Below, piece by piece: positions 34,181 through 62,713 of a stretch of DNA of 64,000 nucleotides. The stretch comes from Cyanidioschyzon merolae (Eukaryota), in assembly GCA_000091205.1 (NCBI GenBank), contig AP006502.2. One strand, given 5' to 3'. Positions within the stretch are counted from its first letter, which is position 1, and each line of letters opens with the position of its first letter. Made by a program: the position numbers and the translations under genes. Under the pieces are notes generated by a model that did no database searches, was not told the DNA's origin, and was given only the letters and a program-made list of their open reading frames with translations.

Positions 34181-35329
34181 ATGTTTGCGCTCGTAGACTC
34201 ATGCGGTGTGTGCGTACGTGTAGGTGTGTGTGTGTGTGTATGTGTGTGTGGGTGTACGCAGATGCATCACCAGCCGAGACTCGGTGGTAAACGAATCGGC
34301 ACTGGGAGCGTTTCCGGATCCCGCGCCTCCAAGTGCACCAGCACGCCGATCAGGGGCCAGTCCAACGGACTCGAGTCTCTGGTGGAGCACCGTGGTCGTT
34401 TCCGTAACTACCGATCGCCATCGCCAATATTCAGGAGATATCGATTTGATCCATGGATTGCATCAAATGCGTTTCGCGAGTCCACGGCGGGTGTGGATAC
34501 GGGGCAGTGCTGTGGCAGCGCGAGGGCGGCGACGCTGGCTGCCCGAGGATCCCCAATCATCGCTTCAGCGTTCGCTGCGCGTAAACGATGGATGGATGAA
34601 CAATGCTGTCAGATTCGTTGCTGTTGGTGTTCTTGGGTACTCATGCAACGTTTGCAGGCAAGGGAAATGATGGCAATCGAGCGTTCAGGTTGTAGCCGCG
34701 AACACACAGCGTTTGTACCAACTTTCTTGAAACCGAATTTCTCAACCTGCGTGCGTTCCAGAACGTGGAGTCTCACAGCTGAACGCGTGACTCGACAGGC
34801 ACGTTGCCCGGCCGGTGTACTTCCCGTCAAAAAACTGGGGCTTCGCTGTACACTGACAAAGTTCGAGCCCTTCACAGTCCGACCGAGTCTGAAGTTGCCG
34901 GTTACGGTTTTGGGGATTGCGGGTGTGCTCGCTGGGGCCGGTGGAGGTGCCGGCAAGGTTTTCGCTGTCCCTGTCGGCCTTCTTGGTGTTTTCCTTGTCG
35001 TGAACGCCGGCTTTCTGCTGAGGTTCCGTTTTGGGCCCGATGCGATAGAGGTCTGGAAACGGGGTGCAGCCGACTCCGTACAACCAACGGCTGGTGACGA
35101 TGCCGCGCTTCGGGGCTATCGTTACGTCCGCGGCTGGCACTACGACCGCATCGAATACTGGAAACTGTGGTGGCCGCGCTTTCCGGTATTGTTTTATTTT
35201 CGAGAATCGGAAAGTTACGATGGACGCGGGAGCATTCATTTTCTACCGGTCGTTTTCGACGCCCAACAGTGGTTGCGGGGCTTCTCGGAGCGCACGCAAC
35301 GAAAAGACTCGGGGCGTTTTCGGTACTGA
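34181..35329 (+). CDS. Membrane protein resembling the cyanobacterial/plastid DUF3119 family; true start probably the ATG at 34667
   Basis: The C-terminal half has two hydrophobic helices 'LPVTVLGIAGVLAGAGG...VPVGLLGVFLVVNAGFLL', then 'IEVWKRG...YWKLWWPRFPVLFYFRESESYDGRGSIHFLPVVFDAQQWL'. This matches my recollection of the DUF3119 signature (W..FPILVYFKE....G..HFFPiifD..QL). The 5' part of the track ORF overlaps a (GT)n microsatellite and is probably not coding. Confidence 0.45.
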   Translation: MFALVDSCGVCVRVGVCVCVCVCGCTQMHHQPRLGGKRIGTGSVSGSRASKCTSTPIRGQSNGLESLVEHRGRFRNYRSPSPIFRRYRFDPWIASNAFRESTAGVDTGQCCGSARAATLAARGSPIIASAFAARKRWMDEQCCQIRCCWCSWVLMQRLQAREMMAIERSGCSREHTAFVPTFLKPNFSTCVRSRTWSLTAERVTRQARCPAGVLPVKKLGLRCTLTKFEPFTVRPSLKLPVTVLGIAGVLAGAGGGAGKVFAVPVGLLGVFLVVNAGFLLRFRFGPDAIEVWKRGAADSVQPTAGDDAALRGYRYVRGWHYDRIEYWKLWWPRFPVLFYFRESESYDGRGSIHFLPVVFDAQQWLRGFSERTQRKDSGRFRY

Positions 35330-38295: not shown

Positions 38296-40989
38296 TCAAG
38301 ACATAAGCCACTGGGATACGCATTCCTCAAGCACTCGAGCTGCTCGCTGGATTGCCGCTGCAGTAGCCGCCAGGCCCTGCGAAGCATTTGTCGCCGTCGA
38401 GCCGTACAAGAACGGAAACGCAACCGCGCTGTAGCCCTTGTCGGGATGCGGTGCAACGGCTGTGTGGCGATACCAAGAACGACCAGGAATACCGTCCGAG
38501 TGGATGAGTGCGCGTTCCACGTTCATGAGCGCCTGGTTCAGCGCTGCGTACTTGGCAACGTCCCGGTCCAGGAGGCGACGACTAGCGCGGTCCGAAAGCG
38601 CCGCACGACACTCGCGCAGTGCCCAGCATTGCGCAACCGTGAGCATCCGCTGTGCCGAAAACCTCTGCGCAGCGCCTGCGAATGCATCCATCGCTGGCTG
38701 CAGTTGCTGCTGCACGACACTGAGAAGGTCTGGGCGGCTTGTCTCTAGCAGCCGCAGATGATAGCGCAACCAGTGTGCGTAGTCTGTGACATTCATCGGC
38801 AGCAGAGGCGCATCGACCAGATCCAAGAGCAGCGTGCTCACCAGCTGCGTCGCAACAAGATGCAGTCGGAAATCCGGATCCGTGAAGCCAAGGAAGTACG
38901 CTTCGTCGTCGTAGATTGAGTGGTACACTGGATACGACGGGTGATCAAGCTCATCGAAACCGATGTCGAGGCTGCTGACCCCCGCATGGTGCAGAAAAGC
39001 GGTATGATCGCTACCGCCTCCCAGAAGATCCAGGAGCGGTATCCAGTTCGCAGTCGCTGCCCGATTGTGCAGCGGACCTGGAGGCTCGTCTCGAAAGTCC
39101 GTACCAAGATGGGGCGCCTCGTTCGGCGAGCTTCGCTGAAGCGCTCGCTCCGAATCAATTGCCTGCTGTCGACGAGCTTTCCAGTCCTCTACCAAAGCCT
39201 TCGATGTGATTGGATCCGTGAGACCACGCATAGCCTGCTCAGCAGCCTGCGTGAGCAGCGGAGAACCCGCAAGACCCAGTCGAGCAGTAGAACCGCTCAC
39301 AATCACATCCGCGTTCACGTAGACGAGTGTGCGTCCCCGAATACGACTCTCTAGATTGGTTTCCACGTGTTCCACCGATCCAATGGTGCCCCATTCCTCG
39401 GCATCCCATGAGGCGAAAACTAGAGTTCTGCGTGGTCGCCATCCGCGTCGTAGAAGCGCTCCAAACGCTCGAACGCTTTCCATCTGCACCAGGGTGCCGG
39501 TATGCGGATCTACAGCGCCATAGATCCAGGCATCATGATGATTCCCAAAGACAATCTCTTTGTCACTCTCCAGGTCGCCATGCGCGCCCGGTATCACGCC
39601 AATGACGTTGTAAATCGGTTTCAACGCGTACTCGTGGACAACCTCAAGATCAAGACGCACGTCATCGTTTCCGCTGAGAACGTAGAGCTTCGAATCCAGG
39701 CCGCCGCGGAAGGCCTCCGGTGCCGTCATCAACGATACCAGGGTATCGTTCTTGGAACCGGCCCGCTGCCAAGACTCGTGCATGCGACGGAAGAGGATCT
39801 CAGCACCAGCAGCCGATATTGGTACCGAGGGAATCGAAGGCAGGCAAGACTCGCGCACAGCCGCCTCGTAGGTGCGTCGCGGGGCCGCCTCTGTCGACCC
39901 GTAGCCCGGTGTTGACGGATCCCCGACACAAAGTGCATTAAACTGGACAGAGCCGCGCTGGACGGCCTTTGCTGGCCGCCAGGGTCCGTCGGGATACGTC
40001 GACCCGCGTGCTGCCCCGTCATCCCCGGGGTCCGAGTAAATGAGCACGGCAGCTGCCTGCCGGACTTGTGCGTGGAATACTTTCAAACCGCGGAAGAGTT
40101 GCCCGTAGCGAACGAGTACGACCTTTCCCGAGACGTTGATCCCTCGGCGCTCCAGTTCCGCGTAGTCCTCTGGACGACCATAGTTCACGTAGACAATGGG
40201 CGCTGAGCGAACCTTTCCCGATGCAGCATAGCCGTGGAACGTGGTAGCGTTCGACACTGCCTCGGTCGCAGCGTCTCCGCGGATGCTCGGCTCGGTGAGA
40301 TCCATGATAGAGGTTTCCGGTGCGCTGGGGTCGGTTTCACTCCAGCGAATGACGAGATGAGATGGTTGACTGCCCAGGAGCACCTGAAACGTCTCTATCT
40401 GAGCCGGGATTCCCGCAGCAACCCACTCGTCGCGAATCAGCTCTGCAGTGCGCTTTGCGGCATGTGTTCCGCTCATATGCGGCTCGGACGTCAGCCGATG
40501 CAGCAAGTTTCGCATACGTTTCGGGTCCGGTGCACGCAGGAGCAACGCATGCCAGTATGGATGTCCCATGAACTGCGCTTTTTGCGACAACGCATCTGTG
40601 GGGGCGTCGGTCGGTACGCGCTCGCCACTTGAGCTCCAGCGCGATAACAGAAGGAGCACGAGCGACAACGCCAGCGCACCGAGCGCTGTGTACGCCCATA
40701 TTCGCCAGTGGTCTCGAATGCACCAGAAAACCCGGCTCTTTAACGACTCACGGAAGGGGTTCCCGCTCAAGCGACTCCGACGCTTGGGATGACGTACAGC
40801 GACAGCGCCGCGCTCTGTGCTGTCTTCTTCGTTCCGCCGAAAAAACGGGAGTCGATCCTGAACCACTTCCTCGTGCTCCGCGGACTCCACGTCCATAACA
40901 AAGTCATCAATGATCTGCTCATCGTCGCTGAGCTCTCCGAGTGTAGTCTGGAGCCCAGCGCTCTCCGTAGACGCACCCTCGGCAGGCAT
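38296..40989 (-). CDS. Glutamate carboxypeptidase II / transferrin-receptor-like M28 peptidase (type II membrane protein; plant AMP1-like)
   Basis: 897-aa ORF. N-terminal signal-anchor 'IWAYTALGALALSLVLLLLS'. PA-domain region present. M28 metal-binding core 'TLVFASWDAEEWGTIGSVEHV' (cf. GCPII ASWDAEEFGLLGSTEW) and 'GGGSDHTAFLHHAGVSSLDIGF'. A C-terminal TfR-like dimerisation region follows. Confidence 0.8.
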   Translation of the reverse strand: MPAEGASTESAGLQTTLGELSDDEQIIDDFVMDVESAEHEEVVQDRLPFFRRNEEDSTERGAVAVRHPKRRSRLSGNPFRESLKSRVFWCIRDHWRIWAYTALGALALSLVLLLLSRWSSSGERVPTDAPTDALSQKAQFMGHPYWHALLLRAPDPKRMRNLLHRLTSEPHMSGTHAAKRTAELIRDEWVAAGIPAQIETFQVLLGSQPSHLVIRWSETDPSAPETSIMDLTEPSIRGDAATEAVSNATTFHGYAASGKVRSAPIVYVNYGRPEDYAELERRGINVSGKVVLVRYGQLFRGLKVFHAQVRQAAAVLIYSDPGDDGAARGSTYPDGPWRPAKAVQRGSVQFNALCVGDPSTPGYGSTEAAPRRTYEAAVRESCLPSIPSVPISAAGAEILFRRMHESWQRAGSKNDTLVSLMTAPEAFRGGLDSKLYVLSGNDDVRLDLEVVHEYALKPIYNVIGVIPGAHGDLESDKEIVFGNHHDAWIYGAVDPHTGTLVQMESVRAFGALLRRGWRPRRTLVFASWDAEEWGTIGSVEHVETNLESRIRGRTLVYVNADVIVSGSTARLGLAGSPLLTQAAEQAMRGLTDPITSKALVEDWKARRQQAIDSERALQRSSPNEAPHLGTDFRDEPPGPLHNRAATANWIPLLDLLGGGSDHTAFLHHAGVSSLDIGFDELDHPSYPVYHSIYDDEAYFLGFTDPDFRLHLVATQLVSTLLLDLVDAPLLPMNVTDYAHWLRYHLRLLETSRPDLLSVVQQQLQPAMDAFAGAAQRFSAQRMLTVAQCWALRECRAALSDRASRRLLDRDVAKYAALNQALMNVERALIHSDGIPGRSWYRHTAVAPHPDKGYSAVAFPFLYGSTATNASQGLAATAAAIQRAARVLEECVSQWLMS

Positions 40990-45767: not shown

Positions 45768-46838
45768 TCATTGTCGTTGACGCTTCTGAGCGAGCGGTGT
45801 CGGTCGGGTGTCCGGTACTCGTACGAGCTTTTGTTTGGTTTGGCGACTGCGACGTCGACGACGCTCAGGTGACCACATTGTAAAGTTGGAGCGTACCGGT
45901 GCACTCGCTGCGAGCACCTGCGTTGTCCGATCCGCCACATAGAGCGGAATCGGGACCCGCGCTCTCGTTTTCAGGTAGATACTGAGAACGCCCCGCCGAA
46001 TACCTCCTGGAATGAACGTTGGCAACTGGTGCAGGACTTGCTCCACGTTCGTCTTGAGTGCCTCCGGCGACATGGAGAGCCTTCCGACTCGGATGGCACA
46101 GCAGGTGCCCGCCGCTAGCCCCGGATACCAAACAGTGCTATCGCGTACGCGTTCACATGCTCGAATCACCCGCTCCGCCACCACGGAAGTACACTGGTCT
46201 AAACCAGAAAAGTTCACAGGCAGAGGGTATTTCTTACGTCGAAAGAACTCTTTTCCGAGAAGATCCGGCAGTAATGGCCACACGCGCGTATCGGCGAGGA
46301 ACAGGTCATGCTTGGCAGCAAGCCGGCGACGTTGCTCAAACTGGAGGTAGTCTCGGCGAAGCTGCCTTACCGACAGCACCTCGGTGACGCGTAAGGATCG
46401 AATGCGCTCACGCCACTGCGCTGGCGGTGACTCGACCAGAAACCGGCGGTACGGTCGCACGGGGTCTGGGCACACCACACACACCGACAGCGACGCGCTC
46501 ACAGCGTCACCTGGCTCCGTCGATCGATAGAGAGGGTTCGGCAACGGTATCAATCGGGGCCGTCGCGGCATATTTTCCGGTATACACTGCAGGGTCAGCA
46601 CCAAAAATACCCAATCCGTTGCACCGTCCGGCTCTGACTCACTACCCGAGTCCGCGTCCAGAAGGTCCCGTGTACGGCGTCGATGCTTCCTGCACCGCTC
46701 TAGAAGAACTTTGATCGCGCTTTCGATGACGGGCGGCCTCTCTTTCGTGTCCCCTTGAGACGCACTTGGATTCGAAACGGATTGCGTTACAAGTTCTGAC
46801 ATTGGCTTTGTTGCCAACAAACGTACCAAGTACCGCAC
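45768..46838 (-). CDS. Ribosomal L1 domain-containing protein (RSL1D1/Cic1/Utp30-like ribosome-biogenesis factor)
   Basis: 356-aa ORF. 'WVFLVLTLQCIP...RPRLIPLPNPLY', 'AKHDLFLADTRVWPLLPDLLGKEFFRRKKYPLPVNF', 'GTCCAIRVGRLSMSPEALKTNVEQV' follow the conserved layout of L1-domain proteins. The C-terminal tail is basic. Confidence 0.65.
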   Translation of the reverse strand: MRYLVRLLATKPMSELVTQSVSNPSASQGDTKERPPVIESAIKVLLERCRKHRRRTRDLLDADSGSESEPDGATDWVFLVLTLQCIPENMPRRPRLIPLPNPLYRSTEPGDAVSASLSVCVVCPDPVRPYRRFLVESPPAQWRERIRSLRVTEVLSVRQLRRDYLQFEQRRRLAAKHDLFLADTRVWPLLPDLLGKEFFRRKKYPLPVNFSGLDQCTSVVAERVIRACERVRDSTVWYPGLAAGTCCAIRVGRLSMSPEALKTNVEQVLHQLPTFIPGGIRRGVLSIYLKTRARVPIPLYVADRTTQVLAASAPVRSNFTMWSPERRRRRSRQTKQKLVRVPDTRPTPLAQKRQRQ

Positions 46839-46983: not shown

Positions 46984-47994
46984 TTGCCCGTTGCTTCGGT
47001 TTCCATGGCACCCAGGTACACACCGAAAGTGACTGGTTTTGTCGAAAGCGCGAGCTGGTCGTTGAATGGAGGAAGCAACACGCACCACCTGCTGGTCAGC
47101 GGGCGAGGAGAGGCTGCGGTGCTGGAGGCCCCAGCAAGGAAGTCGCGGTATCAGACGGCCGCTGGCGTGCGTACTCCGACCGTCCGACACGTCGCTGCGG
47201 TGCGACACCTCCGCTGTACCCAGGAGGCGGGCCCTGGCAGTCGTTGGAACGCCTCTTCTGGAGCGTCCCGGCCAGCGGACGATCGTTTCGCTGTGCGTGA
47301 CTCGAATGTGGTCGAGATACCGGGACGCACGCTATCCGTGTCGGAGCTGAAAAGCGAGCTCTTGCGATCCGTGGCTGAACAGAACCGGGGTCTTGCGTCC
47401 ACCAGCTCCAGTCGAAAAGAGACACTTGAGCTGGTACGCGCTCTGGAACGTGAGCAAGCGCAAGGAAGCAGTCCGTCGACGACGATTGCGGCACCATGTA
47501 ACCTCGGCTGGGCGGAGCAAGCGTCCAAAGTATCCGGTGACTGGAAGCTGTTGTTTACAACCGCCCTTGATGTGCTTCTATTGGGATGGAGTGTCTTACC
47601 ATTCACTCCGCAGGTCGGATCGATCTATCAGAATATTCGTGTCGCGCTATCCGCGGATGCGATGGAATTCACGCTCGAGAACGTGGTGCAGTTCGCTGCA
47701 CCAGCTAGTTTCCTGCTAGCCCAGTTTGGTATAGAGGATTCCGACGCTACGCTACGGGTATTTGCACGCGGACAATGCGACCGCAGCCGCCCACAGCGAC
47801 TGTATCTGCGTTTTGAGCGTGCGCGGCTGGAGCCGAATCGCTTTCTGGGACGCCGCATAGACGAGACGCTACCACCGCTGCAGTTGCCGCTTCGAGGAAC
47901 TGCCGTTGGGTGGACAGAACTGACATTCCTGGATGAAGATCTGCGAATCATTCGAACTGCAGTGAATGATGTGTTTGTGCTGTGGCGCGTCTGA
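46984..47994 (+). CDS. Fibrillin / plastid-lipid-associated protein (PAP) family
   Basis: 336-aa ORF. N-terminal fibrillin motif 'ELKSELLRSVAEQNRGLASTSSSRKETLELVRALERE...SGDWKLLFTTALDVLLL'. C-terminal hallmark 'WTELTFLDEDLRIIRTAVNDVFVL' (fibrillins end ...TYLDEDLRISRGDKGNLFVL). An N-terminal extension fits a transit peptide. Confidence 0.75.
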   Translation: MPVASVSMAPRYTPKVTGFVESASWSLNGGSNTHHLLVSGRGEAAVLEAPARKSRYQTAAGVRTPTVRHVAAVRHLRCTQEAGPGSRWNASSGASRPADDRFAVRDSNVVEIPGRTLSVSELKSELLRSVAEQNRGLASTSSSRKETLELVRALEREQAQGSSPSTTIAAPCNLGWAEQASKVSGDWKLLFTTALDVLLLGWSVLPFTPQVGSIYQNIRVALSADAMEFTLENVVQFAAPASFLLAQFGIEDSDATLRVFARGQCDRSRPQRLYLRFERARLEPNRFLGRRIDETLPPLQLPLRGTAVGWTELTFLDEDLRIIRTAVNDVFVLWRV

Positions 47995-51665: not shown

Positions 51666-53003
51666 TCAAAGGAATAGTTGACGCACTTGGGCGTAAACTT
51701 CATCCACAGAGCGTTCTGCTGGGATGCGATGCACGCGCATGCGGCGTTCTAGAAACTCTATGACTGGCATGGTCGTCTCTATAAAAGTGCGAAAGCGCTT
51801 GCGAATAGATTCAGGATTATCATCGGTACGGCCGCTGCTGCGACTGCGCTGCAGGAGGCGGCGCTCCATTTCGGCTTCGGAACACTCGAAGAAAAGGCAA
51901 AAATCAGCGCGGCGGAGTAGACACTCAAAATCTATGGCTTGATCCAATGCACGAGGGAACCCATCGATCAACACACCAGGCACTGCGAGGGTGCTACCCG
52001 CATCAACTAGTTTCTTCCGTAAAAGTTCCAACGTGATATGACCGGGCACAATGGCGCCTTGGCGAATCATCTCGTCAATCAGCTGGCCCTGTTCGGACTG
52101 AGTCTGGATCTCAGCGCGCAGCAGATCACCTGCTGAAACATGCCAAAAACCAAACTCGGCGACGAGTCGGGCGCACTGGGTACCCTTGCCGGCGCCTGGG
52201 CCGCCGAGTACGAAAACCAACCGAGGCGGCAGACGCGCATGACCCTGCAACGAGGCAGCTTCCTGGAGGTACGCACCAAGCCACTCCAAGGGCTGCGCTG
52301 GCTGCGCCATACAAAGTCGGGATAATGCGGTCGTAAGCGTCTCTAGTACGGTGGAGCTCAAGTACGACTTTGCAGCGGAGCCTCCACCGGCCACTTGCTC
52401 GCCGACGACGCGCACTCGTTCGTATATGCGCTCCACTTCTGTTGCATCGTGGAAGCATTTCGCAAGATCACTCGTAATTTGCGTTACATCCCGACTGGTC
52501 CAGACCCCACAGTGCGCCTTATCCACGCCGAAAAGCGCACGAAGGCTTCGGGGCGCCAGGGCGCGGGCTTCAGCGGGGTCTACGGGTCCGCACAACTCGA
52601 GCCACCGTTTCCAGTCTGTCGCCGAAGTCTGCTCCAGAGGCGTTGCCTCTTCGTTCGACAGGAACACCATCTCGACAGGCGGAGTCGCTCTGCGAAGCAC
52701 GACGATCTCAGAACGCCCTTCACACAGCGCAGCGACGTGTTGTTCGTTGTGCACCTCATCGTCTGGGGCAGGCGTCGTGGTCTCGGCGGGCTCAGGTGAA
52801 AGCAGCGCACGCGCTCGTTCGGGCGTCCAGACGACGGTCTGCCGCGCAACCTCGGTCCAACCGTCTGTCTTTCGTGCGTACGCCAGAATCGGATCTTTTC
52901 GATAAAAAGCTTCCGGCTGAATAACGAGCAGCACAAAACCCGGCCAAGTCGTTCGTTGCGTCATATGCAGTGCAGCTTTGTGGCTGGAGCAGAAATACGG
53001 CAA
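51666..53003 (-). CDS. NME5-like nucleoside-diphosphate-kinase domain + Dpy-30 motif + adenylate/UMP-CMP kinase domain (flagellar-type multidomain nucleotide kinase)
   Basis: 445-aa ORF. The N-terminal region follows the NDK fold pattern: 'GFVLLVIQPEAF', 'WLELCGPVDPAEARALAPRSLRALFGVDKAHCG' (cf. LLGPTDP..A....SLRA.FG.D..NAVHGSDS). Then 'VLETLTTALSRLCMAQPAQPLEWLGAYLQE', a Dpy-30-like motif. Then a complete P-loop kinase: 'VFVLGGPGAGKGTQCARLVAEFGFWHVSAGDLLRAE', 'GAIVPGHITLELLRKKL', 'LIDGFPRALDQAIDFE'. Confidence 0.7.
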   Translation of the reverse strand: MPYFCSSHKAALHMTQRTTWPGFVLLVIQPEAFYRKDPILAYARKTDGWTEVARQTVVWTPERARALLSPEPAETTTPAPDDEVHNEQHVAALCEGRSEIVVLRRATPPVEMVFLSNEEATPLEQTSATDWKRWLELCGPVDPAEARALAPRSLRALFGVDKAHCGVWTSRDVTQITSDLAKCFHDATEVERIYERVRVVGEQVAGGGSAAKSYLSSTVLETLTTALSRLCMAQPAQPLEWLGAYLQEAASLQGHARLPPRLVFVLGGPGAGKGTQCARLVAEFGFWHVSAGDLLRAEIQTQSEQGQLIDEMIRQGAIVPGHITLELLRKKLVDAGSTLAVPGVLIDGFPRALDQAIDFECLLRRADFCLFFECSEAEMERRLLQRSRSSGRTDDNPESIRKRFRTFIETTMPVIEFLERRMRVHRIPAERSVDEVYAQVRQLFL

Positions 53004-54634: not shown

Positions 54635-57010
54635 ATGTGGGTGGTCTTTGTGAATCAAGTAAGGCGCACGCATGATGGAATTGATGTATCGAGCCGTGGA
54701 CGCTGGTACTTAAATGCGAACAAGCTCCGGTGCAAGCGGGCTCGGTCGCTTGCGTATATGACTGTTGTTCGCAGCTTGCCACGGCCACCGGGCTTCTACG
54801 TGACGACGCAGGATGGTGACACGCTTGCGAGTATCGCGTCACGCTATGGCATTGACGCGAAACGTGTTTGGGAGCTGAATAACCGCGCTTCGCGTTTAGA
54901 GTTTAAGCGTGGCAAGTTCCCATTTCTCCCTGGTTTGAAACAGCACGAGGTTTCGAGGCAAGCGCCTTCAGGTGGCGTATCCCTAGAGGAGGCGCTGGAG
55001 CGGCCACTATGTTCTGGGCAACGCATCTTTGTACCGAATGAAACAGTTGCACAGACTGCAAAAGGCGGTAACCTCCATGGGGCTTCCTTGCGCCAAACGG
55101 CACCTCCAAAAACAGTCGAAGCACCTCCGGTTACCCGGACGTTTGTTCCTCCCAAGGCACAGACCACTCCGCAACAGAAATCTTCAGCAGCGATGGGTGC
55201 TCCATCCGCGCCACCGGCCAAGGGTGTCCCGGTTGTAGAGCAGCAGGCACTGCCGCCGTCACCACCATTACAGGGTACGCTCGTTGGCTCGGTTGGGACA
55301 ACGGATTTCTTCCTGGGCGTCTTCGCGGTGCTCGTTGGATTTTATTCGGCGAAGATGATGCTGCCGCGGTCGAATACCGAACCCGGAACGCAGCCAAAGA
55401 CCTCACTCCTAAAGGCCTTGTATAAGAGGCTCGTGGGCTTTCTACAGGCCATGATTACTGTTGCTGTTTTGATTGGGCTCGCGGCAGGCGCGCTAGGCGC
55501 TCGCCTCCGAGCGGCGCTGCTGTTCATCTTTAACGCCTGCACGATACTCTTACGTGGCGTATCGCAGATGATCGTCCTCTTCGGCCAGTTCATGTGCGGC
55601 ATGCTCGGTGTCGTGGCGCTTGCGGTTCAGGGTGTCGTTCAACTGTTCCAACGGCTTGCGCAGGCGGCATTCTTGCTGATCGCGTCGATTTTTTTGGTTA
55701 CGTGGCAGAGCGCGGTACGTCTCTGGTCGGCAGCCTCTACGCGTTCGAGCGCAGTACTAGAGAACATCACCCAGCGCGGGCTGTCACCATCGCTGCCCTC
55801 GGCGGAAACAGGATTGTGGTCTGTACCAGATGAGCGCTCTTCCTCCGTCGACCAGACGGCATCCGAGTCGTTCTTTGGGCTCATTCGGCAATTTTTCTCG
55901 CGGGATTCGGGAAGCGATCTCATTCGCTGCGTTCTTCGTGAACGCACCCAGATCTCGGACGCCTTCGTTCGAATGCGATTCGATCTTCCGGGACCCGACG
56001 ACCAGCTAGTTCTCCAGATGGGTCAACGCATCGAAGTGCATGTTCAGAAAAGCCGCCAAAGTCTCTGGAGTGACGTTCAGCCCCTTGATCAAGCGGAATC
56101 TTCTTGTGGGCTTGGAGCAATCAGGCCGCACCTGCTAGCGGTCGCCAGTGATCGCCATCAGCCTGGTAGCTTCGAGATCATAGTGCCCGTGTCGCACGCA
56201 CTGCAGCAAGTGCTTTGGGAAGCGAGCGACGCAGATAATGCGACGCATTCGGCTGCCGCTGCTCCAATGGACGCCGAGTACGATGGTGCTTTCAGTACAG
56301 GAAGCGATGTCCAGGTCCTGGAGCGGCCATCTACCTCCGACCACGTATTCTCGGCGACGTGCAGTGCAAACAATGACGAGTTCGACGAGCATTTCCTAAT
56401 CGCGCTTGAATCCCTTGTGGAAGGTGTTGATGCTATCCGCGTTCGACCAGCCCCGAATACGGAGCTCATCTACCGTCGCGCGATGAATCCCTCCGCTGGG
56501 ACCGTTGTGGTGCATAACGTTGTGCTCTTAGCATGCGGTCTGGGCATTGTATCCGCGGTGCGCATCGCCGACGAACTCCTACAAGACTCCGAGTCCGCGG
56601 TGAGCCGCATCACGCTAATCTATTATAACGAGCGCGCCCGAGATTTCATCCTCCTCGACGACTTGGAGCGCATGAGCAAAGACCATGGTGAGCGATTCCG
56701 CCTCCATTGTGTTTGGAATGAGAACGCTGGCGCGTACCTTGCCAGCACAGGATTCCCCCGAGCTGCAACGGCTTCCGCTGGTGCGGGTACAAGCGCAACC
56801 GTCGCTGCCGCCGCAGCCAGACGCAACGGCTACGGCCGTGAAAGACGCGCGGCACAGCCGGTGCCTGCTACCGTCCGGGTGATATCGGCCATACCAGCGT
56901 GGACGGAAGGTACAATGGCCATTATCAGCGGGAACGAGTCATTCTCCCAAGAAATGTGGTACGCCTTGGGGGACTCGGGTTACCCGGAGGACGCGATCAC
57001 CTTCATATAA
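54635..57010 (+). CDS. Multidomain membrane protein: N-terminal LysM, polytopic TM region, C-terminal FNR-like FAD/NAD(P)-binding oxidoreductase domain
   Basis: 791-aa ORF. LysM: 'YVTTQDGDTLASIASRYGIDAKRVWELNN'. About four hydrophobic helices lie between residues 230 and 370. C-terminal NAD-binding-like 'TVVVHNVVLLACGLGIVSAVRIADELLQDSE..RITLIYYNERARDFILLDDLERMSKDHGERFRL' (cf. cyt-b5-reductase MIAGGTGITPM...LLFANQTE.DILLR.ELE) and end 'MAIISGNESFSQEMWYALGDSGYPEDAITFI'. No His pairs typical of ferric-reductase heme domains were seen. The FNR call is moderate. Confidence 0.55.
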   Translation: MWVVFVNQVRRTHDGIDVSSRGRWYLNANKLRCKRARSLAYMTVVRSLPRPPGFYVTTQDGDTLASIASRYGIDAKRVWELNNRASRLEFKRGKFPFLPGLKQHEVSRQAPSGGVSLEEALERPLCSGQRIFVPNETVAQTAKGGNLHGASLRQTAPPKTVEAPPVTRTFVPPKAQTTPQQKSSAAMGAPSAPPAKGVPVVEQQALPPSPPLQGTLVGSVGTTDFFLGVFAVLVGFYSAKMMLPRSNTEPGTQPKTSLLKALYKRLVGFLQAMITVAVLIGLAAGALGARLRAALLFIFNACTILLRGVSQMIVLFGQFMCGMLGVVALAVQGVVQLFQRLAQAAFLLIASIFLVTWQSAVRLWSAASTRSSAVLENITQRGLSPSLPSAETGLWSVPDERSSSVDQTASESFFGLIRQFFSRDSGSDLIRCVLRERTQISDAFVRMRFDLPGPDDQLVLQMGQRIEVHVQKSRQSLWSDVQPLDQAESSCGLGAIRPHLLAVASDRHQPGSFEIIVPVSHALQQVLWEASDADNATHSAAAAPMDAEYDGAFSTGSDVQVLERPSTSDHVFSATCSANNDEFDEHFLIALESLVEGVDAIRVRPAPNTELIYRRAMNPSAGTVVVHNVVLLACGLGIVSAVRIADELLQDSESAVSRITLIYYNERARDFILLDDLERMSKDHGERFRLHCVWNENAGAYLASTGFPRAATASAGAGTSATVAAAAARRNGYGRERRAAQPVPATVRVISAIPAWTEGTMAIISGNESFSQEMWYALGDSGYPEDAITFI

Positions 57011-57577: not shown

Positions 57578-60500
57578 CTAGGAATGCGTTCGAGTGGGCG
57601 GCATCGCTGCCCCATTGTTGCCGCGCGGCGGAGAAGAAGCCATCTGCTCGAGCGCTTCAAGCTCCGCTACGGTGTTCACGCCCTCTAGACGCCAGAGAAG
57701 ACCGCTTTCTTCACGAACACAATAAACATCGACGTCATAGCCACAGTCCACTGCCATCTGAACGAGATCAGTGGCGTAGTATTCGAAGCGCTCAGGTACA
57801 GGACTCGAACTGCGCACCCGCTGGTTGCCTTTGTCGACTCGATGCGGTAGCGACGCTGCAAGGAGCTGCATCGAAAGCGCACGATCCACCACCATGATGC
57901 CGGAGTAGAATTCTCGAATGGCCAGGATCTGGGCGCCGTCTGGTCGCTGCAGGGCCTCGCGATACTCCACAATGGCGCGCAGGGCGCCGCTCTGGGCGTC
58001 GCGAACAACGCGTCCATAGGCGCCCGCGTCTCTGGACGTATAGCATCCGCTCAAAATGACGCCGAACGTCTGCGATGGCCCGTTTGGATGGGCCGCTGCC
58101 TCACGCTGACGGCTTCGTTGATCTAGCAGTGGTTCCAGAATCGCAGAATCTACCCCTGGATTATCGCCGTAGAGCACGAGTATGTCACCGGAGAACGTCG
58201 AAAGCGTCGAGCACAGGGCCGCATAGAGGGCGTGGCCGGTCCCGAGCGGCTGGCTCTGGCGAACCAGGAGGTACGGGAGCGCGTCAAGCGCTGTTCGGAT
58301 AGCGCCTTCGACAGACTCGTTGCCGACCACGACAGTCGGTATTCCCATGGTGTGGAGCGTCTCCACCACATGTCGAAGCATGGGTTTGCCACAGAACGAA
58401 TGCACGACCTTGGGGTACGCAGCGCGGAACCGAGTACCTCGTCCCGCGGCGAGCACGATACCGACCACAGCAGCACTTTGGAGTTGCGCTTGCCAGGCGG
58501 ATGCTGGCCCCAACTCGCCAGCGTCTGCCTCAGCCAAAAGCGCACCAGCTACTTCCAAATCGCCCAATCTCGAGGTTTCCGCCAGGCGAATGCCGAATGA
58601 ACCACTTTCAAGGTGTCGGAGTTCATTCTCTGACAGCGACGTGGCCACCTGCTCCAAGATTTGTCGAAGCCGCGACCGCAGCAGCCTTTCTAGCCGACGG
58701 GCGAGCGTTTTGGCGACCTCACCCTCCAGGGCGGTTGAACTGACTTCCACGCGTATCCGCCAGAACGGCTGTGTGCGCGACGGACGTACCAGCACGCTCA
58801 CAGCGTCCTCAATCGACACATCTGGAAATTCCAGCTGAATCCGTTGTAGTTGCTCATCGATGAGGGCCGTTTGCACCCATTCCGGATCTAAGACGCGAGT
58901 TTCGTCTGCAGTGTAGCGCCAGTTTGCTGCGGCGTAGCGACTCGCCTGGCGCAGAAGCGGTGTTTCCATGTCATGCTCTGTGAGCTGCGCGTTCACCACT
59001 TCGCTGTGTCCAGCCGAAGCAAACACCTCTAAACGTTCTAATAAATGCGTGACTGGCTCCGTACGAAGCAGCGCCTCCATCGTAAGTAAGGTGGCAACGC
59101 CGTCGCTGCCCGCGGGGTTCGCCAATCGCGCCAACGATACGATGCATTCAGCAGCGTACCGCGCTTCCCGCGTCAGGGGCGTGCTCACGTCCCGCAACAA
59201 CAACTCGTAGAGCTGACGCTGCACCAGAGGTGCCACGTAACAACCAACATGTCCATTCGGCTCGGCATAGACGGCGAGATTAAAGCAGCGCTCGACGATA
59301 TCGCGGCCGTACTGAGCGCCTGTGGGCACCAGCACCAGGTTGCCATCGCAGAGCGCACGGATTCGCTCGCGATACACACGTCTGCAGTAAGCTGTTAGCG
59401 CACAGCCGAACGATAGTCGGGGCAGTACTTGTATGGGTGTAGTTGTTGTTTCCGGGGCCGCCACGAGCAACTGGACGCAGCGGCGCAGGAATGCAACCAA
59501 ACAGAGCGCTATCCAGTCACCGTCGTAGACTACGATGGATGAAATCGATGATGCCTCTTTCGTTCGACCCGCTGAACGCTGCTCGGATGATGCGTAGTAG
59601 ACCAGGCGATCCGCATCGCCGTCCAGAGCCGCCATGCGGTCGCCCGACACGAGACAACGGAAGTCATCGCCGTGTCCAGCGTGCTGGTGGATGTACTCAG
59701 CCCCGCAGCGCTCGTTCACGGCCTGCGACTCCTCATGTCGATGCGTCGTGCTCAGCGGAAACGATAATAGCGATGATACCTCCGCAAGCACCACCGAAGC
59801 TGATCCATATGCGCAATCAACTCGAAGTCTCGTCGTCGAGTCGACTGCGCCCGATCCAGTCACCTCGGGATCCCGTTGCAGCGCTCGACAAAGCGCATGG
59901 TACCCTTTGACGAGCCGTTCGTGGACATAGGCATCAAAGGTACTCAATCGTCCATTTTGCGATGCCCAGACTGCGTACTGCGTGAATGGTGTGGTGGTGA
60001 GGCCCAGATTTCGCACCCCCGAGCACTGCGTCGCTCGTAGCAAGACTTCTAAAGCTACCTGTGCGAGACGAGCGGAACTCGGACGATTGTCGTAGCCGAG
60101 GATGACGACACCACCGCGCCCGGACTTGTCGTCGATGCTTGAGCCTGCCGCTCCCGGGAGAGTCGCGGTTTTCTCGGCGGCGGCCGGTTCCCTGCCATGA
60201 AGCATTCGATGCGCTAGGCGGTGGAACAGGGAACCAAGAGCCACAGCCCTCGGTGCATGAATCGGTACCGTCAGCGTTTCCACGTTCATTCCGTCGAAAG
60301 AGTCGTTATTCGCGGAATCTGTTGGTGGTGCCAGCGTCTCCTGCAGCAGGTCTGCGAAGAACTCTCCCAGCAAGGGGTGCGGCGTATCCTGGAGGTGCGC
60401 TTGCAACAGACCCCCGTCGCTGCGCACAACCTTGACGCCGTTCTCACTTGACGGGTTGTGGGAAGCAGTTATCATCAGGCCCAGTACACACTTTCGAAAA

Positions 60501-61372
60501 GAAGCGACCAGCGCGACGACAGCTGCGGCTCGGGCGACAACAGCGTCCAAAGCGGGTCCGTCGCGTACGCGGACGCCTGCACCGGTATAACGCACGGCTT
60601 CTGTGAGCGGGTATCGATTGGAAAGCCAGTTTGCGAGCTCGTGAAAGGGATAGGGAGAAGCATCGGTCGTGTTTAGACATTGACCGGCTTCGGAACGTTC
60701 CCCTAACGAGCAGAGCGTGGCACGTCCGACACCGCCAGCGAGCTTGCAGGGTCGCAACCGCACGCTGCGAGGCGGTGCGCGACCACGGAGCCTAGTTTGG
60801 TGCCTCGTTATAGGACGAAGCTGAGGCGAAACCGTTCGTCGACTTGCAACCAGGGCCAAGTCAGGGACCAGGCCGCTTGCCCCGAACATGAAGTGTACTC
60901 GGTGCGAAAAATCGATGGCGAGCGTCATCGCCTGTGCGCACAAGCTCACTGGCGATGTTCGCTTAGGACCCGTCCCGTTCCGAATAACTTCCTGTTGGGT
61001 TCCGCATGAAAGATTTCCTGCTGGACGCTGTGATCTTCGTTGTGTCGAGAGGGTTCCGTGGGAGCTTGGACTTTGGGTGCAGTTATGGAATACGGAGACC
61101 AGTGGGGCTATGCATAGACCCCTGCAAACAAGTGCTGAGCATTTCCAGGAGGAATCGTATGCGCGCGCAGTCTGTTGCAGGTTCGGTGGACGCCCATTCG
61201 TGGTCAGCGCTTTCTCGGGTATGAGTAGCGTCGCATGCTGCCCGTTCGCCCTTGTTGAAGAGCCGGAACTCGACACGCGAGGAAGCGTCGACTCAACGAT
61301 GGATCCGATTGTTCTGAAAACGTACATATATGTACAATGGACAGATCGCTGTACTGTAATGCGTGCGCGCAC
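57578..61372 (-). CDS. Fusion protein: phosphoacetylglucosamine mutase (AGM1/PGM3-type) + GlmU-type N-acetylglucosamine-1-phosphate uridylyltransferase domain (no acetyltransferase LbH domain)
   Basis: 1264-codon uninterrupted ORF. AGM1 part (about residues 240-900): 'RYTGAGVRVRDG', phospho-Ser loop 'GLMITASHNPSSENGVKVV', 'ERCGAEYIHQ', 'ALDGDADRLVYY', 'YDGDWIALCLVAF', 'AVYAEPNGHVG', 'SVLVRPSRTQP'. C-terminal part (about 935-1230): 'VGIVLAAGRGTRFRAAYPKVVHSFCGKPMLRHVVETL', 'RQSQPLGTGHALYAAL', 'GDILVLYGDNPGVD', 'DAGAYGRVVRD', 'EYYATDLVQMAV', 'LEGVNTVAELEALEQM', which is the GlmU N-terminal nucleotidyltransferase fold. The first 150-240 residues of the track ORF may be 5' read-through; alternative starts are near 60928. 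Confidence 0.8.
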   Translation of the reverse strand: MRARITVQRSVHCTYMYVFRTIGSIVESTLPRVSSSGSSTRANGQHATLLIPEKALTTNGRPPNLQQTARAYDSSWKCSALVCRGLCIAPLVSVFHNCTQSPSSHGTLSTQRRSQRPAGNLSCGTQQEVIRNGTGPKRTSPVSLCAQAMTLAIDFSHRVHFMFGASGLVPDLALVASRRTVSPQLRPITRHQTRLRGRAPPRSVRLRPCKLAGGVGRATLCSLGERSEAGQCLNTTDASPYPFHELANWLSNRYPLTEAVRYTGAGVRVRDGPALDAVVARAAAVVALVASFRKCVLGLMITASHNPSSENGVKVVRSDGGLLQAHLQDTPHPLLGEFFADLLQETLAPPTDSANNDSFDGMNVETLTVPIHAPRAVALGSLFHRLAHRMLHGREPAAAEKTATLPGAAGSSIDDKSGRGGVVILGYDNRPSSARLAQVALEVLLRATQCSGVRNLGLTTTPFTQYAVWASQNGRLSTFDAYVHERLVKGYHALCRALQRDPEVTGSGAVDSTTRLRVDCAYGSASVVLAEVSSLLSFPLSTTHRHEESQAVNERCGAEYIHQHAGHGDDFRCLVSGDRMAALDGDADRLVYYASSEQRSAGRTKEASSISSIVVYDGDWIALCLVAFLRRCVQLLVAAPETTTTPIQVLPRLSFGCALTAYCRRVYRERIRALCDGNLVLVPTGAQYGRDIVERCFNLAVYAEPNGHVGCYVAPLVQRQLYELLLRDVSTPLTREARYAAECIVSLARLANPAGSDGVATLLTMEALLRTEPVTHLLERLEVFASAGHSEVVNAQLTEHDMETPLLRQASRYAAANWRYTADETRVLDPEWVQTALIDEQLQRIQLEFPDVSIEDAVSVLVRPSRTQPFWRIRVEVSSTALEGEVAKTLARRLERLLRSRLRQILEQVATSLSENELRHLESGSFGIRLAETSRLGDLEVAGALLAEADAGELGPASAWQAQLQSAAVVGIVLAAGRGTRFRAAYPKVVHSFCGKPMLRHVVETLHTMGIPTVVVGNESVEGAIRTALDALPYLLVRQSQPLGTGHALYAALCSTLSTFSGDILVLYGDNPGVDSAILEPLLDQRSRQREAAAHPNGPSQTFGVILSGCYTSRDAGAYGRVVRDAQSGALRAIVEYREALQRPDGAQILAIREFYSGIMVVDRALSMQLLAASLPHRVDKGNQRVRSSSPVPERFEYYATDLVQMAVDCGYDVDVYCVREESGLLWRLEGVNTVAELEALEQMASSPPRGNNGAAMPPTRTHS

Positions 61373-62713
61373 GGAAGCAGTGCACGCTTCGACCGAGTCT
61401 TCGGTGCGTTCGATTCTTCGCGAAAAATAAAGATATTTATCATTTACAATTCACTGGACTGCACGCGTGCACAAGGGCGCAGCATCGACAGCGCGCCGTT
61501 CAAATCGCCGGGTCAAGCGCCGAGCGCTCCGGGTCGCCCGCTTCAGCAGCGCGTTTTTCTCACTGTTCGCCGTTGCCGCAGCGCTGCCTCCAAATGGGCG
61601 AGACAGGGCGCTCCGAAATGTACCGACTGCTTGCGTTCGAAATGAGTAGACTCAAACTGACTATGGAACGGTTGGGTGAGACTCTGGACCGTACCGATGC
61701 AACGACAGCGGCAGCGATAGGTTTTGTGTTGTTGGGCACGCAACTGAGCGTGGGCGCGCGCTGTGCTCTCCAGACAGCCCCAGCGCAACGATCCGTCGAG
61801 TCCACGTCACAGGACGCCTCTGAGCTGGCAACTGAGGAGTAAACGCGTTGTGTGCGCGCGATTACGACTTAAAAAAGTGCCATGAACGCGTTGCATCCCG
61901 CAGAGGATATGCATCGGAGTGTAGGCGGGTCGAATGGGCGGTGCTTCCGGCTTGTTTGTAAGCGGGGGCGCACCACTGCGCCGCCCAGCTCTGAACAAAG
62001 TGCCAAGATCGTGCGGACACCTGCCGCTGTTATTGGAGGTGCAGAATCGGGCGACTCGCTGCAGCCGCACCGGGCCGGCATTCCCCGGAAGAAAGCTCCG
62101 CCAGCGCATCCACCAAAGCGAGGTCGCGTGGCGTGCGAGCTCCGCGCCCCAAGCCACAGAGGTTTGAAAATCCTTCATGGTCTCGTCAAGCGTGCTGCTC
62201 TCTGGTGAAAGCCGGTCGGCATGTACGCAGTCCACCTCCGTGTTGTTCTTCAAATCGCGCCTGATAACATCCATAGTTTACGGTGACGAGGTGCCTTTGC
62301 CAGAGTCGGAACGCTGGCGCACTGCCAGAATGTTTCCCTGGGCCATGCATTGCTTAAGAGCAGTCATCCTAGAATAAATCCAAGACCCAGACTTTGAGCC
62401 TCGCTTCACAATGAATCAAATGCAAGTATCGTCTCCAGAGCATCTTGCAGCGCTCGATTCGCGGGAGCTTGTTTCCGCTGACGGACGTTTTCGGTCGACC
62501 GACAACAAGTGACGCAGCATAGTCTCTGTTCCAGCGACTTTGTGCGATACGAACGGGCTTAACAAACGAGCACCTCATCGTCGAACCTGATGCGGTGTTA
62601 CCAGAACTGTCTCTGAGGCAGTCCGGCGTCTCTATGTAAAACACGCGCCTCCACTTCGCTCATTGGCAGTGTGAAAAGTCTACGAGCAGCGCTCGGTTTT
62701 CACGTCGCTTTCG

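What the first reader, a model, noticed from the sequence alone, without database searches (positions are those of the whole stretch)
57578..61372. One 1264-codon ORF fuses phosphoacetylglucosamine mutase (AGM1) to a bacterial GlmU-type uridylyltransferase: two consecutive UDP-GlcNAc steps in one polypeptide
The minus-strand ORF reads without a stop from a eukaryotic AGM1/PGM3 module into the N-terminal nucleotidyltransferase half of bacterial GlmU. AGM1 marks: 'GLMITASHNPSSENGVKVV' (active-site phosphoserine loop), 'ALDGDADRLVYY' (metal-binding loop), 'VYAEPNGHVG'. GlmU marks: 'IVLAAGRGTRF...PKVVHSFCGKPMLRHVV', 'QPLGTGHALYAA', 'ILVLYGDNPGV', 'EYYATDLVQMAV', 'GVNTVAELEALE'. The left-handed-beta-helix acetyltransferase half of GlmU is absent. 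That fits a eukaryotic pathway in which acetylation happens earlier, on GlcN-6-P. As far as I recall, eukaryotes normally use a separate UAP1-family pyrophosphorylase. A mutase-uridylyltransferase fusion would channel GlcNAc-6-P to GlcNAc-1-P to UDP-GlcNAc. I do not know this architecture as a described one. The roughly 240 residues upstream of the AGM1 module have no recognisable domain and may be 5' UTR read-through or a targeting extension.
Basis: partly seen in the sequence, partly recalled or inferred. Interest (0 to 1): 0.8.

Follow-up and report, generated by a model that had tools for sequence, protein, structure and literature searches.

The report
Red-alga AGM1–GlmU fusion enzyme gene
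This is a real gene of the red alga Cyanidioschyzon merolae that joins two consecutive UDP-GlcNAc-making enzymes in one protein, but the public genome annotation already names it as this fusion, so it is untested rather than new.

Summary
The minus-strand ORF 57578-61372 reads without a stop from a eukaryotic AGM1-type phosphoacetylglucosamine mutase into the N-terminal uridylyltransferase half of GlmU. No hexapeptide acetyltransferase domain is present. From its first ATG the ORF is 100% identical to C. merolae 10D protein XP_005539139.1/BAM83103.1. That record is already named 'UDP-N-acetylglucosamine pyrophosphorylase fused with phosphoacetylglucosamine mutase', so the architecture is known at annotation level. 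I found no paper that characterises it. The fusion is kept, in conserved synteny, in Cyanidiococcus and Cyanidium at 36-53% identity. It also occurs in Rhodelphis marinus and Cyanophora paradoxa. Galdieria, Porphyridium and Timspurckia carry the same GlmU-N-type enzyme as a separate protein. Catalytic loops of both halves are intact, except that GlmU Asn169 is Tyr. Codon statistics show coding signal straight through the linker. The first 161 codons look non-coding, so the likely start is M162 (window 60889). An Arg/Ser-rich, disordered extension of about 80 residues follows and resembles an organelle-targeting peptide. The most likely function is GlcNAc-6-P to GlcNAc-1-P to UDP-GlcNAc in one polypeptide. 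Channelling, localisation and the absence of a UAP1 gene remain untested.

The parts
60890..61372 (-). ORF codons 1-161. This is probably 5' UTR or intergenic sequence that happens to be open. The reference gene model starts at M16, window 61327.
   Evidence: The codon log-odds in frame is -0.06, no better than the other frames, against +0.17 to +0.25 in the enzyme body. In the orthologous loci L002 and L004 the frame is open for only 63 and 56 codons upstream, with no similarity. JGI gene calls for near-identical contigs start at MFGASG.
60653..60889 (-). Likely true start (M162, MFGASGLVP...) followed by an N-terminal extension of about 80 residues that is Arg/Ser-rich and almost free of acidic residues. 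It is a candidate organelle-targeting peptide.
   Evidence: There is no other Met before the AGM1 active-site loop, so the extension must be translated. Composition over 75 residues is 12 Arg, 12 Ser/Thr and 3 Asp/Glu. AlphaFold pLDDT is about 22 over residues 1-80 of the 1103-aa protein. Comparable extensions with a Phe near the start occur in Cyanidiococcus-like, Cyanidium and Cyanophora (MPFVSLLHP) orthologues. Targeting itself is an inference.
58637..60652 (-). AGM1/PGM3-type phosphoacetylglucosamine mutase module (ORF aa 241-912). It is divergent and carries insertions. Phosphoserine loop TASHNP is at 60452-60469, metal loop DGDADR at 59606-59623, sugar loop EPNGH at 59249-59263, and phosphate loop RPSRTQ...R at 58745-58789.
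   Evidence: Pfam PGM_PMM_I, AMG1_III and a weak PGM_PMM_IV match. PDB 4bju/5o9x/2dka match by sequence. By fold, Foldseek gives E 1.8e-24 and a target TM-score of about 0.7 over the whole AGM1. All four loops are invariant in five orthologues that are 39-53% identical.
58478..58636 (-). Linker (ORF aa 913-965). It includes a short conserved pre-domain element (L-x-x-F/Y/L) that also precedes the stand-alone GlmU-N proteins.
   Evidence: The coding signal is +0.245, as high as in the domains. The stretch is continuous in frame in three genera. One Leu is invariant across 13 family members. The region is modelled as helices with low confidence.
57623..58477 (-). GlmU N-terminal-type GlcNAc-1-P uridylyltransferase domain (ORF aa 966-1250). 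It ends inside the helix that in GlmU leads to the acetyltransferase domain. The signature LAAGRGTRFRAAYPK lies at about 58412-58456.
   Evidence: NCBIfam TIGR01173 glmU matches at E 1.6e-34, covering model positions 4-236 of 452. PDB GlmU alignments show Arg18, Lys25, Gln76, Gly81, Thr82, Tyr103, Asp105, Glu154 and Asn227 kept, with Asn169 replaced by Tyr. Foldseek aligns the GlmU N-domain only, about 280 columns.
57578..57622 (-). Short non-conserved C-terminal tail (aa 1251-1264) and the stop codon. No left-handed beta-helix follows.
   Evidence: There is no Hexapep hit. The alignment ends here in all orthologues. pLDDT is low.

Best explanation
The gene encodes a bifunctional enzyme of UDP-GlcNAc synthesis in Cyanidioschyzon merolae. 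The N-terminal AGM1-type mutase converts GlcNAc-6-P to GlcNAc-1-P, using a phosphoserine and a bound divalent metal. The C-terminal domain is derived from the uridylyltransferase half of GlmU and lacks the acetyltransferase half. It condenses GlcNAc-1-P with UTP to give UDP-GlcNAc and pyrophosphate. Acetylation must therefore happen earlier, on GlcN-6-P, by a separate GNA1-type enzyme. What is shown here: domain identity, intact catalytic residues, a continuous coding frame, and conservation of the fusion in three cyanidialean genera, Rhodelphis and Cyanophora. What is inferred: the actual substrates, any kinetic advantage or channelling from the fusion, and the role of the basic N-terminal extension of about 80 residues, which looks like an organelle (plastid-type) targeting peptide.
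For: Catalytic loops of both halves are conserved across orthologues that are only 36-53% identical. Coding signal runs through the linker. The same single ORF sits in the same MCM8-NUDIX-fusion-FNR-like neighbourhood in L002 and L004. The exhaustive profile search finds the same architecture in Rhodelphis marinus (P0142; its EukProt record name, Rmarinus@m.940, looks transcript-derived) and Cyanophora paradoxa (P0143). The reference annotation independently reached the same reading. From my own memory of Pompeo et al. 2001 (J Biol Chem), not checked here: the isolated N-terminal fragment of E. coli GlmU keeps uridyltransferase activity, so a domain without the beta-helix can be active.
Against: No biochemical or expression data were found. 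The AGM1 half is very divergent in Cyanidiaceae: AMG1_III scores 28.5 bits against a cut-off of 27.1, AMG1_II is not detected, and the branch is long. GlmU Asn169, which I recall as a GlcNAc contact, is Tyr in Cyanidioschyzon and Cyanidiococcus, so sugar specificity could differ. The structure model is too weak (mean pLDDT 56.9) to say anything about domain packing or channelling. I could not check whether C. merolae also has UAP1 or has GNA1.
Confidence: 0.8

Rival explanations
1. The enzyme works inside the plastid or another organelle, not the cytosol. On this reading it descends from an ancestral Archaeplastida module that supplied UDP-GlcNAc to plastid peptidoglycan synthesis, and red algae kept it for another plastid glycoconjugate.
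For: The extension is obligatory, basic, hydroxylated and disordered. Phe lies near the N-terminus in all Cyanidiaceae orthologues (MFGASGLVP, MILLFGAC, MEGRVGFVAS), and Cyanophora starts MPFVSLLHP, which from my own knowledge resembles glaucophyte and red-algal transit peptides. The plastid-type PAP-fibrillin in the same window has a similar GFVES start. A review reports a transit-peptide-like N-terminus and partly chloroplast GFP signal for Arabidopsis AGM (PMC10951099).
Against: No targeting predictor or localisation data were available. To my knowledge red algae lack peptidoglycan, and cytosolic UDP-GlcNAc is needed for N-glycosylation and GPI anchors. The Rhodelphis fusion has no extension. 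The Galdieria stand-alone enzyme has an N-terminal hydrophobic helix instead.
Confidence: 0.35
2. The long ORF is an artefact: two adjacent genes, or a gene plus an open spacer, read through as one. The products would then be separate AGM1 and GlmU-N proteins.
For: In Galdieria, Porphyridium and Timspurckia the GlmU-N enzyme is separate. The 5' 161 codons of this same ORF do appear to be spurious read-through. No C. merolae transcript data were examined.
Against: The linker has full coding signal. The junction is in frame and alignable in three genera despite 36-53% identity. There is no Met near the start of the GlmU-N domain to restart translation: the last Met before it is in the AGM1 body (ORF sequence). 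The Rhodelphis sequence, whose record name looks transcript-derived, spans both halves.
Confidence: 0.04
3. The C-terminal domain is a nucleotidyltransferase with another specificity, such as a different NDP-sugar or a MobA/IspD-like reaction. Alternatively, one half is a catalytically dead scaffold.
For: The best Pfam hit by E-value is the generic MobA-like NTP_transf_3. Asn169 is Tyr. The AGM1 half is highly divergent.
Against: The 11 best NCBIfam hits are all GlmU, aligned over the whole uridyltransferase domain, while MobA, IspD and RmlA models score far lower and only over the glycine-rich loop. Nine of ten GlmU active-site residues checked, and all AGM1 catalytic loops, are kept under long-term purifying selection.
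Confidence: 0.1

Closest known systems
C. merolae 10D protein XP_005539139.1 / BAM83103.1 (UniRef100_M1VMA7), 'UDP-N-acetylglucosamine pyrophosphorylase fused with phosphoacetylglucosamine mutase'
   Same: It is the same gene. The window ORF from M16 is 100% identical over 1249 aa.
   Different: The reference model starts 146 codons upstream of the start I favour (M162), in a stretch with no coding signal and no conservation. I found no published characterisation.
Bacterial bifunctional GlmU (for example E. coli, PDB 1hv9/1fwy/2oi5)
   Same: The N-terminal Rossmann-like uridylyltransferase domain is shared, with the LxxGxGTxxxxxxPK signature, Arg18, Lys25, Asp105 and Asn227. Like GlmU, it fuses two consecutive steps of UDP-GlcNAc synthesis.
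   Different: It lacks the left-handed beta-helix acetyltransferase and trimerisation domain. The fused partner is the preceding mutase rather than the acetyltransferase. Identity is only about 27-39%. Asn169 is Tyr. It scores below every GlmU equivalog cut-off (119.5 against 366.85 bits).
Eukaryotic AGM1/PGM3 (A. fumigatus 4bju, C. albicans 2dka)
   Same: It has the four-domain alpha-D-phosphohexomutase fold with AGM1-specific domain III and all four catalytic loops.
   Different: It is about 670 aa against about 540, with several insertions. Identity is 16-20%. AMG1_II is not detected. It carries an N-terminal extension and a C-terminal enzyme domain.
Stand-alone eukaryotic GlmU-N-type enzymes (Galdieria, Porphyridium purpureum, Timspurckia, and about 30 unnamed eukaryote-type sequences)
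   Same: They are the closest relatives of the C-terminal half. They share the family motifs YEYYATDFV, YADNPGVD and EFNSGIV, and the pre-domain element.
   Different: They are not fused to AGM1, and no AGM1 lies within 2-4 kb upstream. Galdieria has an N-terminal hydrophobic helix.
Eukaryotic UAP1/AGX1/QRI1 UDP-GlcNAc pyrophosphorylase
   Same: It presumably catalyses the same reaction, EC 2.7.7.23.
   Different: It belongs to an unrelated subfamily (Pfam UDPGP). No such hit is found in this protein.

Membership tests
AGM1/PGM3 phosphoacetylglucosamine mutase (alpha-D-phosphohexomutase superfamily) | Phosphoserine loop T-A-S-H-N-P in domain I | tested here: met
   TASHNP lies at ORF aa 302-307. 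It is invariant in five orthologues and aligned to the AfAGM1 Ser69 loop.
AGM1/PGM3 phosphoacetylglucosamine mutase (alpha-D-phosphohexomutase superfamily) | Metal-binding loop D-G-D-A-D-R in domain II | tested here: met
   DGDADR lies at aa 584-589 and is invariant.
AGM1/PGM3 phosphoacetylglucosamine mutase (alpha-D-phosphohexomutase superfamily) | Sugar-binding loop E-x-N-G-H in domain III, and a Pfam AMG1_III match | tested here: met
   EPNGH lies at aa 704-708. AMG1_III scores 28.5 bits against a cut-off of 27.1, which is marginal. The Rhodelphis and Cyanophora fusions score 171 and 188 bits.
AGM1/PGM3 phosphoacetylglucosamine mutase (alpha-D-phosphohexomutase superfamily) | Phosphate-binding loop R-P-S-G-T-E plus a downstream Arg in domain IV | tested here: met
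   RPSRTQ lies at aa 863-868 with Arg 9 residues downstream. R, P, S, T and R are invariant. PGM_PMM_IV is only weak, at 15.9 bits against 23.1.
AGM1/PGM3 phosphoacetylglucosamine mutase (alpha-D-phosphohexomutase superfamily) | Four-domain fold | tested here: met
   Foldseek places AGM1 structures on top, with E 1.8e-24 and a target TM-score of 0.66-0.72. The model has moderate confidence.
AGM1/PGM3 phosphoacetylglucosamine mutase (alpha-D-phosphohexomutase superfamily) | GlcNAc-6-P to GlcNAc-1-P mutase activity | not testable with these tools
   This needs an enzyme assay.
Bifunctional GlmU (bacterial) | N-terminal uridylyltransferase domain with the L-x2-G-x-G-T-x-M-x4-P-K signature and catalytic Arg18/Lys25 | tested here: met
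   LAAGRGTRFRAAYPK is present. Arg18 and Lys25 align to ORF R981 and K988.
Bifunctional GlmU (bacterial) | Mg2+ ligands Asp105 and Asn227, and sugar/uracil contacts Gln76, Gly81, Thr82, Tyr103, Glu154 and Asn169 (residue roles recalled from the GlmU structure papers, not re-derived here) | tested here: inconclusive
   All are kept except Asn169, which is Tyr in Cyanidioschyzon and Cyanidiococcus but Asn in Cyanidium and all other family members.
Bifunctional GlmU (bacterial) | C-terminal left-handed beta-helix (hexapeptide-repeat) GlcN-1-P acetyltransferase and trimerisation domain | tested here: not met
   There is no Hexapep hit. GlmU models match only positions of about 4-240. The protein ends 14 residues after the domain.
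Bifunctional GlmU (bacterial) | Score above the NCBIfam equivalog cut-off | tested here: not met
   The score is 119.5 bits against 366.85 for TIGR01173.
UAP1/AGX1 (Pfam UDPGP) eukaryotic UDP-GlcNAc pyrophosphorylase | UDPGP-family domain | tested here: not met
   There is no UDPGP hit at E <= 0.1.
Eukaryotic GlmU-N-only clade (defined operationally here) | GlmU-N domain without Hexapep, carrying the shared motifs [YF]E[YF]YATD[FL]V, Y[AG]DNPG and EF[NY]SG, and scoring well above bacterial sequences with the family profile | tested here: met
   The Cyanidiaceae, Rhodelphis and Cyanophora fusions and about 30 stand-alone proteins score 394-486 bits, against 176 or less for bacteria. This is partly circular, because the profile was built from family members. 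No GTDB species genome carries the motifs in a true relative.

The most novel reading that the evidence does not exclude
The AGM1-GlmU-N fusion is an ancient Archaeplastida invention, shared by glaucophytes, Rhodelphis and cyanidialean red algae, that originally supplied UDP-GlcNAc inside the plastid for peptidoglycan synthesis. Its transit-peptide-like extension in Cyanidiaceae would then mean that red-algal plastids, thought to lack peptidoglycan, still consume UDP-GlcNAc for an unrecognised glycoconjugate. The conserved LysM-domain neighbour could be related to this.
Probability: 0.1. Interest if true: 0.7.

Novelty: already known. Interest (0 to 1): 0.33.

Why it matters
If the annotation is right, cyanidialean red algae, and apparently Rhodelphis and Cyanophora, make UDP-GlcNAc with a GlmU-derived uridylyltransferase fused to AGM1, not with the canonical eukaryotic UAP1 as a separate enzyme. 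UDP-GlcNAc is the essential donor for N-glycans and GPI anchors. The gene is a clean natural example of two consecutive steps fused in one protein. It also shows that the GlmU uridylyltransferase half works, or at least persists, without its trimerising beta-helix. The fused or unfused state could serve as a rare genomic character for early Archaeplastida evolution. The practical value is modest. It is a ready candidate for a one-protein GlcNAc-6-P to UDP-GlcNAc biocatalyst from a thermo-acidophile, and the 5' end of the reference gene model probably needs correcting.

Tried and rejected
1. I scanned 185,579 bacterial and archaeal species genomes with the family motifs to look for a bacterial donor of the GlmU-N half. 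Of 21 pattern hits, none was a true relative. The donor stays unresolved, and the best bacterial identities are about 35-39%.

2. I scanned JGI metagenomes for further fused lineages. Only C. merolae-like contigs (L006, L007) were fused. All other eukaryote-type loci had no AGM1 upstream.

3. I asked whether all fusions descend from one event. In an NJ tree of GlmU-N the fused forms make a basal grade, without bootstrap. In an NJ bootstrap of the AGM1 halves the five fusions are never monophyletic (0 of 100), and Rhodelphis plus Cyanophora group in 31 of 100. The result is inconclusive and long-branch effects are likely.

4. An AlphaFold model of the 1103-aa protein from a 5-sequence alignment had mean pLDDT 56.9 and pTM 0.49. 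That is adequate to recognise both folds but not to judge domain packing or channelling.

5. Eight full-text literature searches found no paper describing this fusion.

6. I could not name the organisms behind about 30 unnamed eukaryote-type GlmU-N proteins. The cluster look-ups gave no names. One contig, L005, is clearly eukaryotic.

7. I could not test whether C. merolae has UAP1 or GNA1.

8. I considered and rejected the idea that ORF codons 1-161 are a domain or a long targeting sequence.

Full report
**Observation.** The window has a minus-strand ORF at 57578-61372 of 1264 codons with no stop. Pfam assigns PGM_PMM_I (aa 284-325), AMG1_III (617-771) and a weak PGM_PMM_IV (859-891). These are followed by NTP_transf_3/NTP_transferase (971-1107), and no hexapeptide-repeat family appears. 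The eleven best NCBIfam hits are GlmU models, each matched only over model positions of about 4-240 out of about 450. PDB sequence searches return the GlmU N-domain for the back and fungal AGM1 (4bju, 5o9x, 2dka) for the front. An AlphaFold model has only moderate confidence (mean pLDDT 56.9). Foldseek nevertheless matches it to AGM1 structures over the whole four-domain fold (E 1.8e-24, target TM about 0.7) and to the GlmU N-terminal domain over about 280 columns.

**Source and prior annotation.** From its first ATG (M16) the ORF is 100% identical to P0129, which is BAM83103.1 / XP_005539139.1 / UniRef100_M1VMA7 of Cyanidioschyzon merolae 10D, on a 1,621,617-bp record. That record is already named 'UDP-N-acetylglucosamine pyrophosphorylase fused with phosphoacetylglucosamine mutase'. 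Eight full-text searches found no paper that characterises or discusses it.

**Is it one gene?** Four lines of evidence say yes.
- The same single ORF is found in a Cyanidiococcus-like metagenome contig (P0002, 51% identity), in Cyanidiococcus yangmingshanensis (P0003), and in Cyanidium caldarium (P0004/P0005, 36-38%).
- It sits in the same neighbourhood in each case: MCM8, NUDIX, the fusion, then an FNR-like gene.
- A codon-usage log-odds trained on other genes of the window is as high in the linker (aa 901-965, +0.245) as in the two enzyme bodies (+0.17 to +0.24).
- There is no Met near the start of the second module. A Rhodelphis sequence whose record name looks transcript-derived spans both modules.

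**Where translation starts.** Codons 1-161 have no frame-specific coding signal (-0.06). They have no counterpart in the orthologous loci, where the frame is open for only 63 and 56 codons upstream. Gene calls on near-identical contigs start at MFGASG. I therefore place the start at M162 (window 60889), giving 1103 residues. The reference model, which starts at window 61327, is probably too long by 146 residues.

**The N-terminal extension.** No further Met occurs before the active-site loop, so about 80 residues ahead of the AGM1 fold must be translated. Over the 75 residues counted from M162 they contain 12 Arg, 12 Ser/Thr and only 3 acidic residues, and they are predicted disordered. Extensions of similar character exist in the Cyanidiococcus-like and Cyanidium orthologues, each with a Phe within the first seven residues.

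**Catalytic competence.** In the AGM1 half, four loops are invariant in five orthologues:
- the phosphoserine loop TASHNP;
- the metal loop DGDADR;
- the sugar loop EPNGH;
- the phosphate loop RPSxT(Q/E) with an Arg nine residues downstream.

In the GlmU-N half I aligned the sequence to E. coli and H. influenzae GlmU. The roles of these residues are recalled from the GlmU structure papers. Arg18, Lys25, Gln76, Gly81, Thr82, Tyr103, Asp105, Glu154 and Asn227 are kept. Asn169 is Tyr in Cyanidioschyzon and Cyanidiococcus (REFYSGI) but Asn in Cyanidium and in every other family member. The domain ends within the helix that in GlmU leads into the beta-helix. From my memory of Pompeo et al. 2001, such N-terminal fragments of E. 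coli GlmU retain uridyltransferase activity.

**Relatives and distribution.** With the C-terminal 303 residues as query, the best hits are stand-alone proteins without Hexapep from Galdieria partita and G. sulphuraria, an unnamed sequence, and Porphyridium purpureum (115-131 bits). Full-length bacterial GlmU comes next at about 35-39% identity.

An exhaustive profile search of 1.84 billion representatives found two further true fusions. One is Rhodelphis marinus (P0142, 866 aa). The other is Cyanophora paradoxa (P0143, 925 aa), whose N-terminus MPFVSLLHP... looks like a glaucophyte transit peptide. The same search found stand-alone members in Galdieria yellowstonensis, Timspurckia and unnamed contigs.

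A family profile separates about 30 eukaryote-type proteins (394-486 bits) from bacteria (176 bits or less). This separation is partly circular, because the profile was built from family members. The family motifs are not found in any true relative among 185,579 prokaryotic species genomes. In Galdieria and in other unfused loci no AGM1 lies upstream. A JGI metagenome scan added no new fused lineage.

The 'bacterial' half therefore belongs to a distinct and apparently old eukaryotic clade of GlmU-N-only enzymes. A bacterial origin is plausible, but the donor is unresolved.

**One fusion or several?** Simple NJ trees do not settle this. Fused forms make a basal grade in the GlmU-N tree. The AGM1 halves of the fusions are never monophyletic (0 of 100 bootstraps), and the Cyanidiaceae AGM1 sits on a very long branch.

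**Most likely mechanism.** The protein is a bifunctional enzyme that carries out GlcNAc-6-P to GlcNAc-1-P (mutase) and GlcNAc-1-P + UTP to UDP-GlcNAc + PPi (uridylyltransferase). Acetylation is supplied upstream by a separate GNA1-type enzyme. Domain identity, intact active sites and single-gene status are shown. Substrates, any channelling and the localisation are inferred.

The main open alternative concerns location. The extension suggests organelle, plastid-type, import. This would fit a peptidoglycan-precursor role in Cyanophora, and a review reports a transit-peptide-like N-terminus and partly chloroplast GFP signal for Arabidopsis AGM (PMC10951099). Against it, red algae need cytosolic UDP-GlcNAc, Rhodelphis has no extension, and Galdieria has a hydrophobic N-terminal helix instead. 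I could not test whether C. merolae also has a UAP1 or a GNA1.

**Verdict.** The fusion is already annotated under exactly this description, so it is not novel. It is uncharacterised experimentally. Its occurrence in Rhodelphis and Cyanophora, the separate GlmU-N clade in other red algae, the probable mis-annotated start and the targeting-like extension are modest additions. Interest is about 0.33.

Noticed in passing
window 54635-57010 (+): The convergent neighbour is a 791-aa ORF with an N-terminal LysM domain (aa 57-83, E 1.9e-5), a long hydrophobic middle, and an FNR-like FAD_binding_6/NAD_binding_1 C-terminus. LysM domains bind GlcNAc-containing glycans. The gene stays next to the UDP-GlcNAc fusion gene in Cyanidiococcus-like (L002) and Cyanidium (L004) contigs. 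This may be no more than general synteny.
   Followed up: partly
window ~61612-61776 (+), inside ORF 61363-61842: A short plus-strand ORF is conserved by tblastx (55 aa, 42% identity, E 1e-8) with a called 81-aa gene in L002 (3783-4028). It has no Pfam hit. It lies between the NUDIX gene and the fusion gene, just upstream of the reference model's start at window 61327.
   Followed up: partly
window 57896-57916 (-), ORF aa 1153-1159: REFYSGI: the residue equivalent to GlmU Asn169, a GlcNAc contact as I recall it, is Tyr in Cyanidioschyzon and Cyanidiococcus. It is Asn in Cyanidium, Galdieria, Porphyridium, Rhodelphis, Cyanophora and bacteria. This could indicate a change in sugar specificity.
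   Followed up: partly
P0007 / P0006 / P0291 (Galdieria; locus L001 10001-11259): The stand-alone Galdieria GlmU-N proteins begin with, or contain, a hydrophobic helix followed by basic residues (MMLFWGSLALFGIYGFIALSRRKK). This suggests a membrane-anchored enzyme. The gene is not next to AGM1.
   Followed up: no
L005, L008, L017 and proteins P0145, P0147, P0148, P0302-P0329: About 30 unnamed eukaryote-type GlmU-N proteins come from SRA and metagenome assemblies. Some have N-terminal low-complexity extensions of 220-400 residues starting MTHEAPP.... L005 is clearly a eukaryotic contig, with TBCA, DBR1 and WD40 genes. The organisms could not be identified.
   Followed up: partly
window 1-64000: Other genes in the window include a Dpy-30/adenylate kinase fusion (51666-53003 -), a PAP-fibrillin (46984-47994 +), a ribosomal L1-family protein (45768-46838 -), an M28 peptidase with PA and TFR_dimer domains (38296-40989 -), an OTU protease (36378-37985 +) and a DUF3119 protein (34181-35329 +). 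All look ordinary for C. merolae.
   Followed up: no
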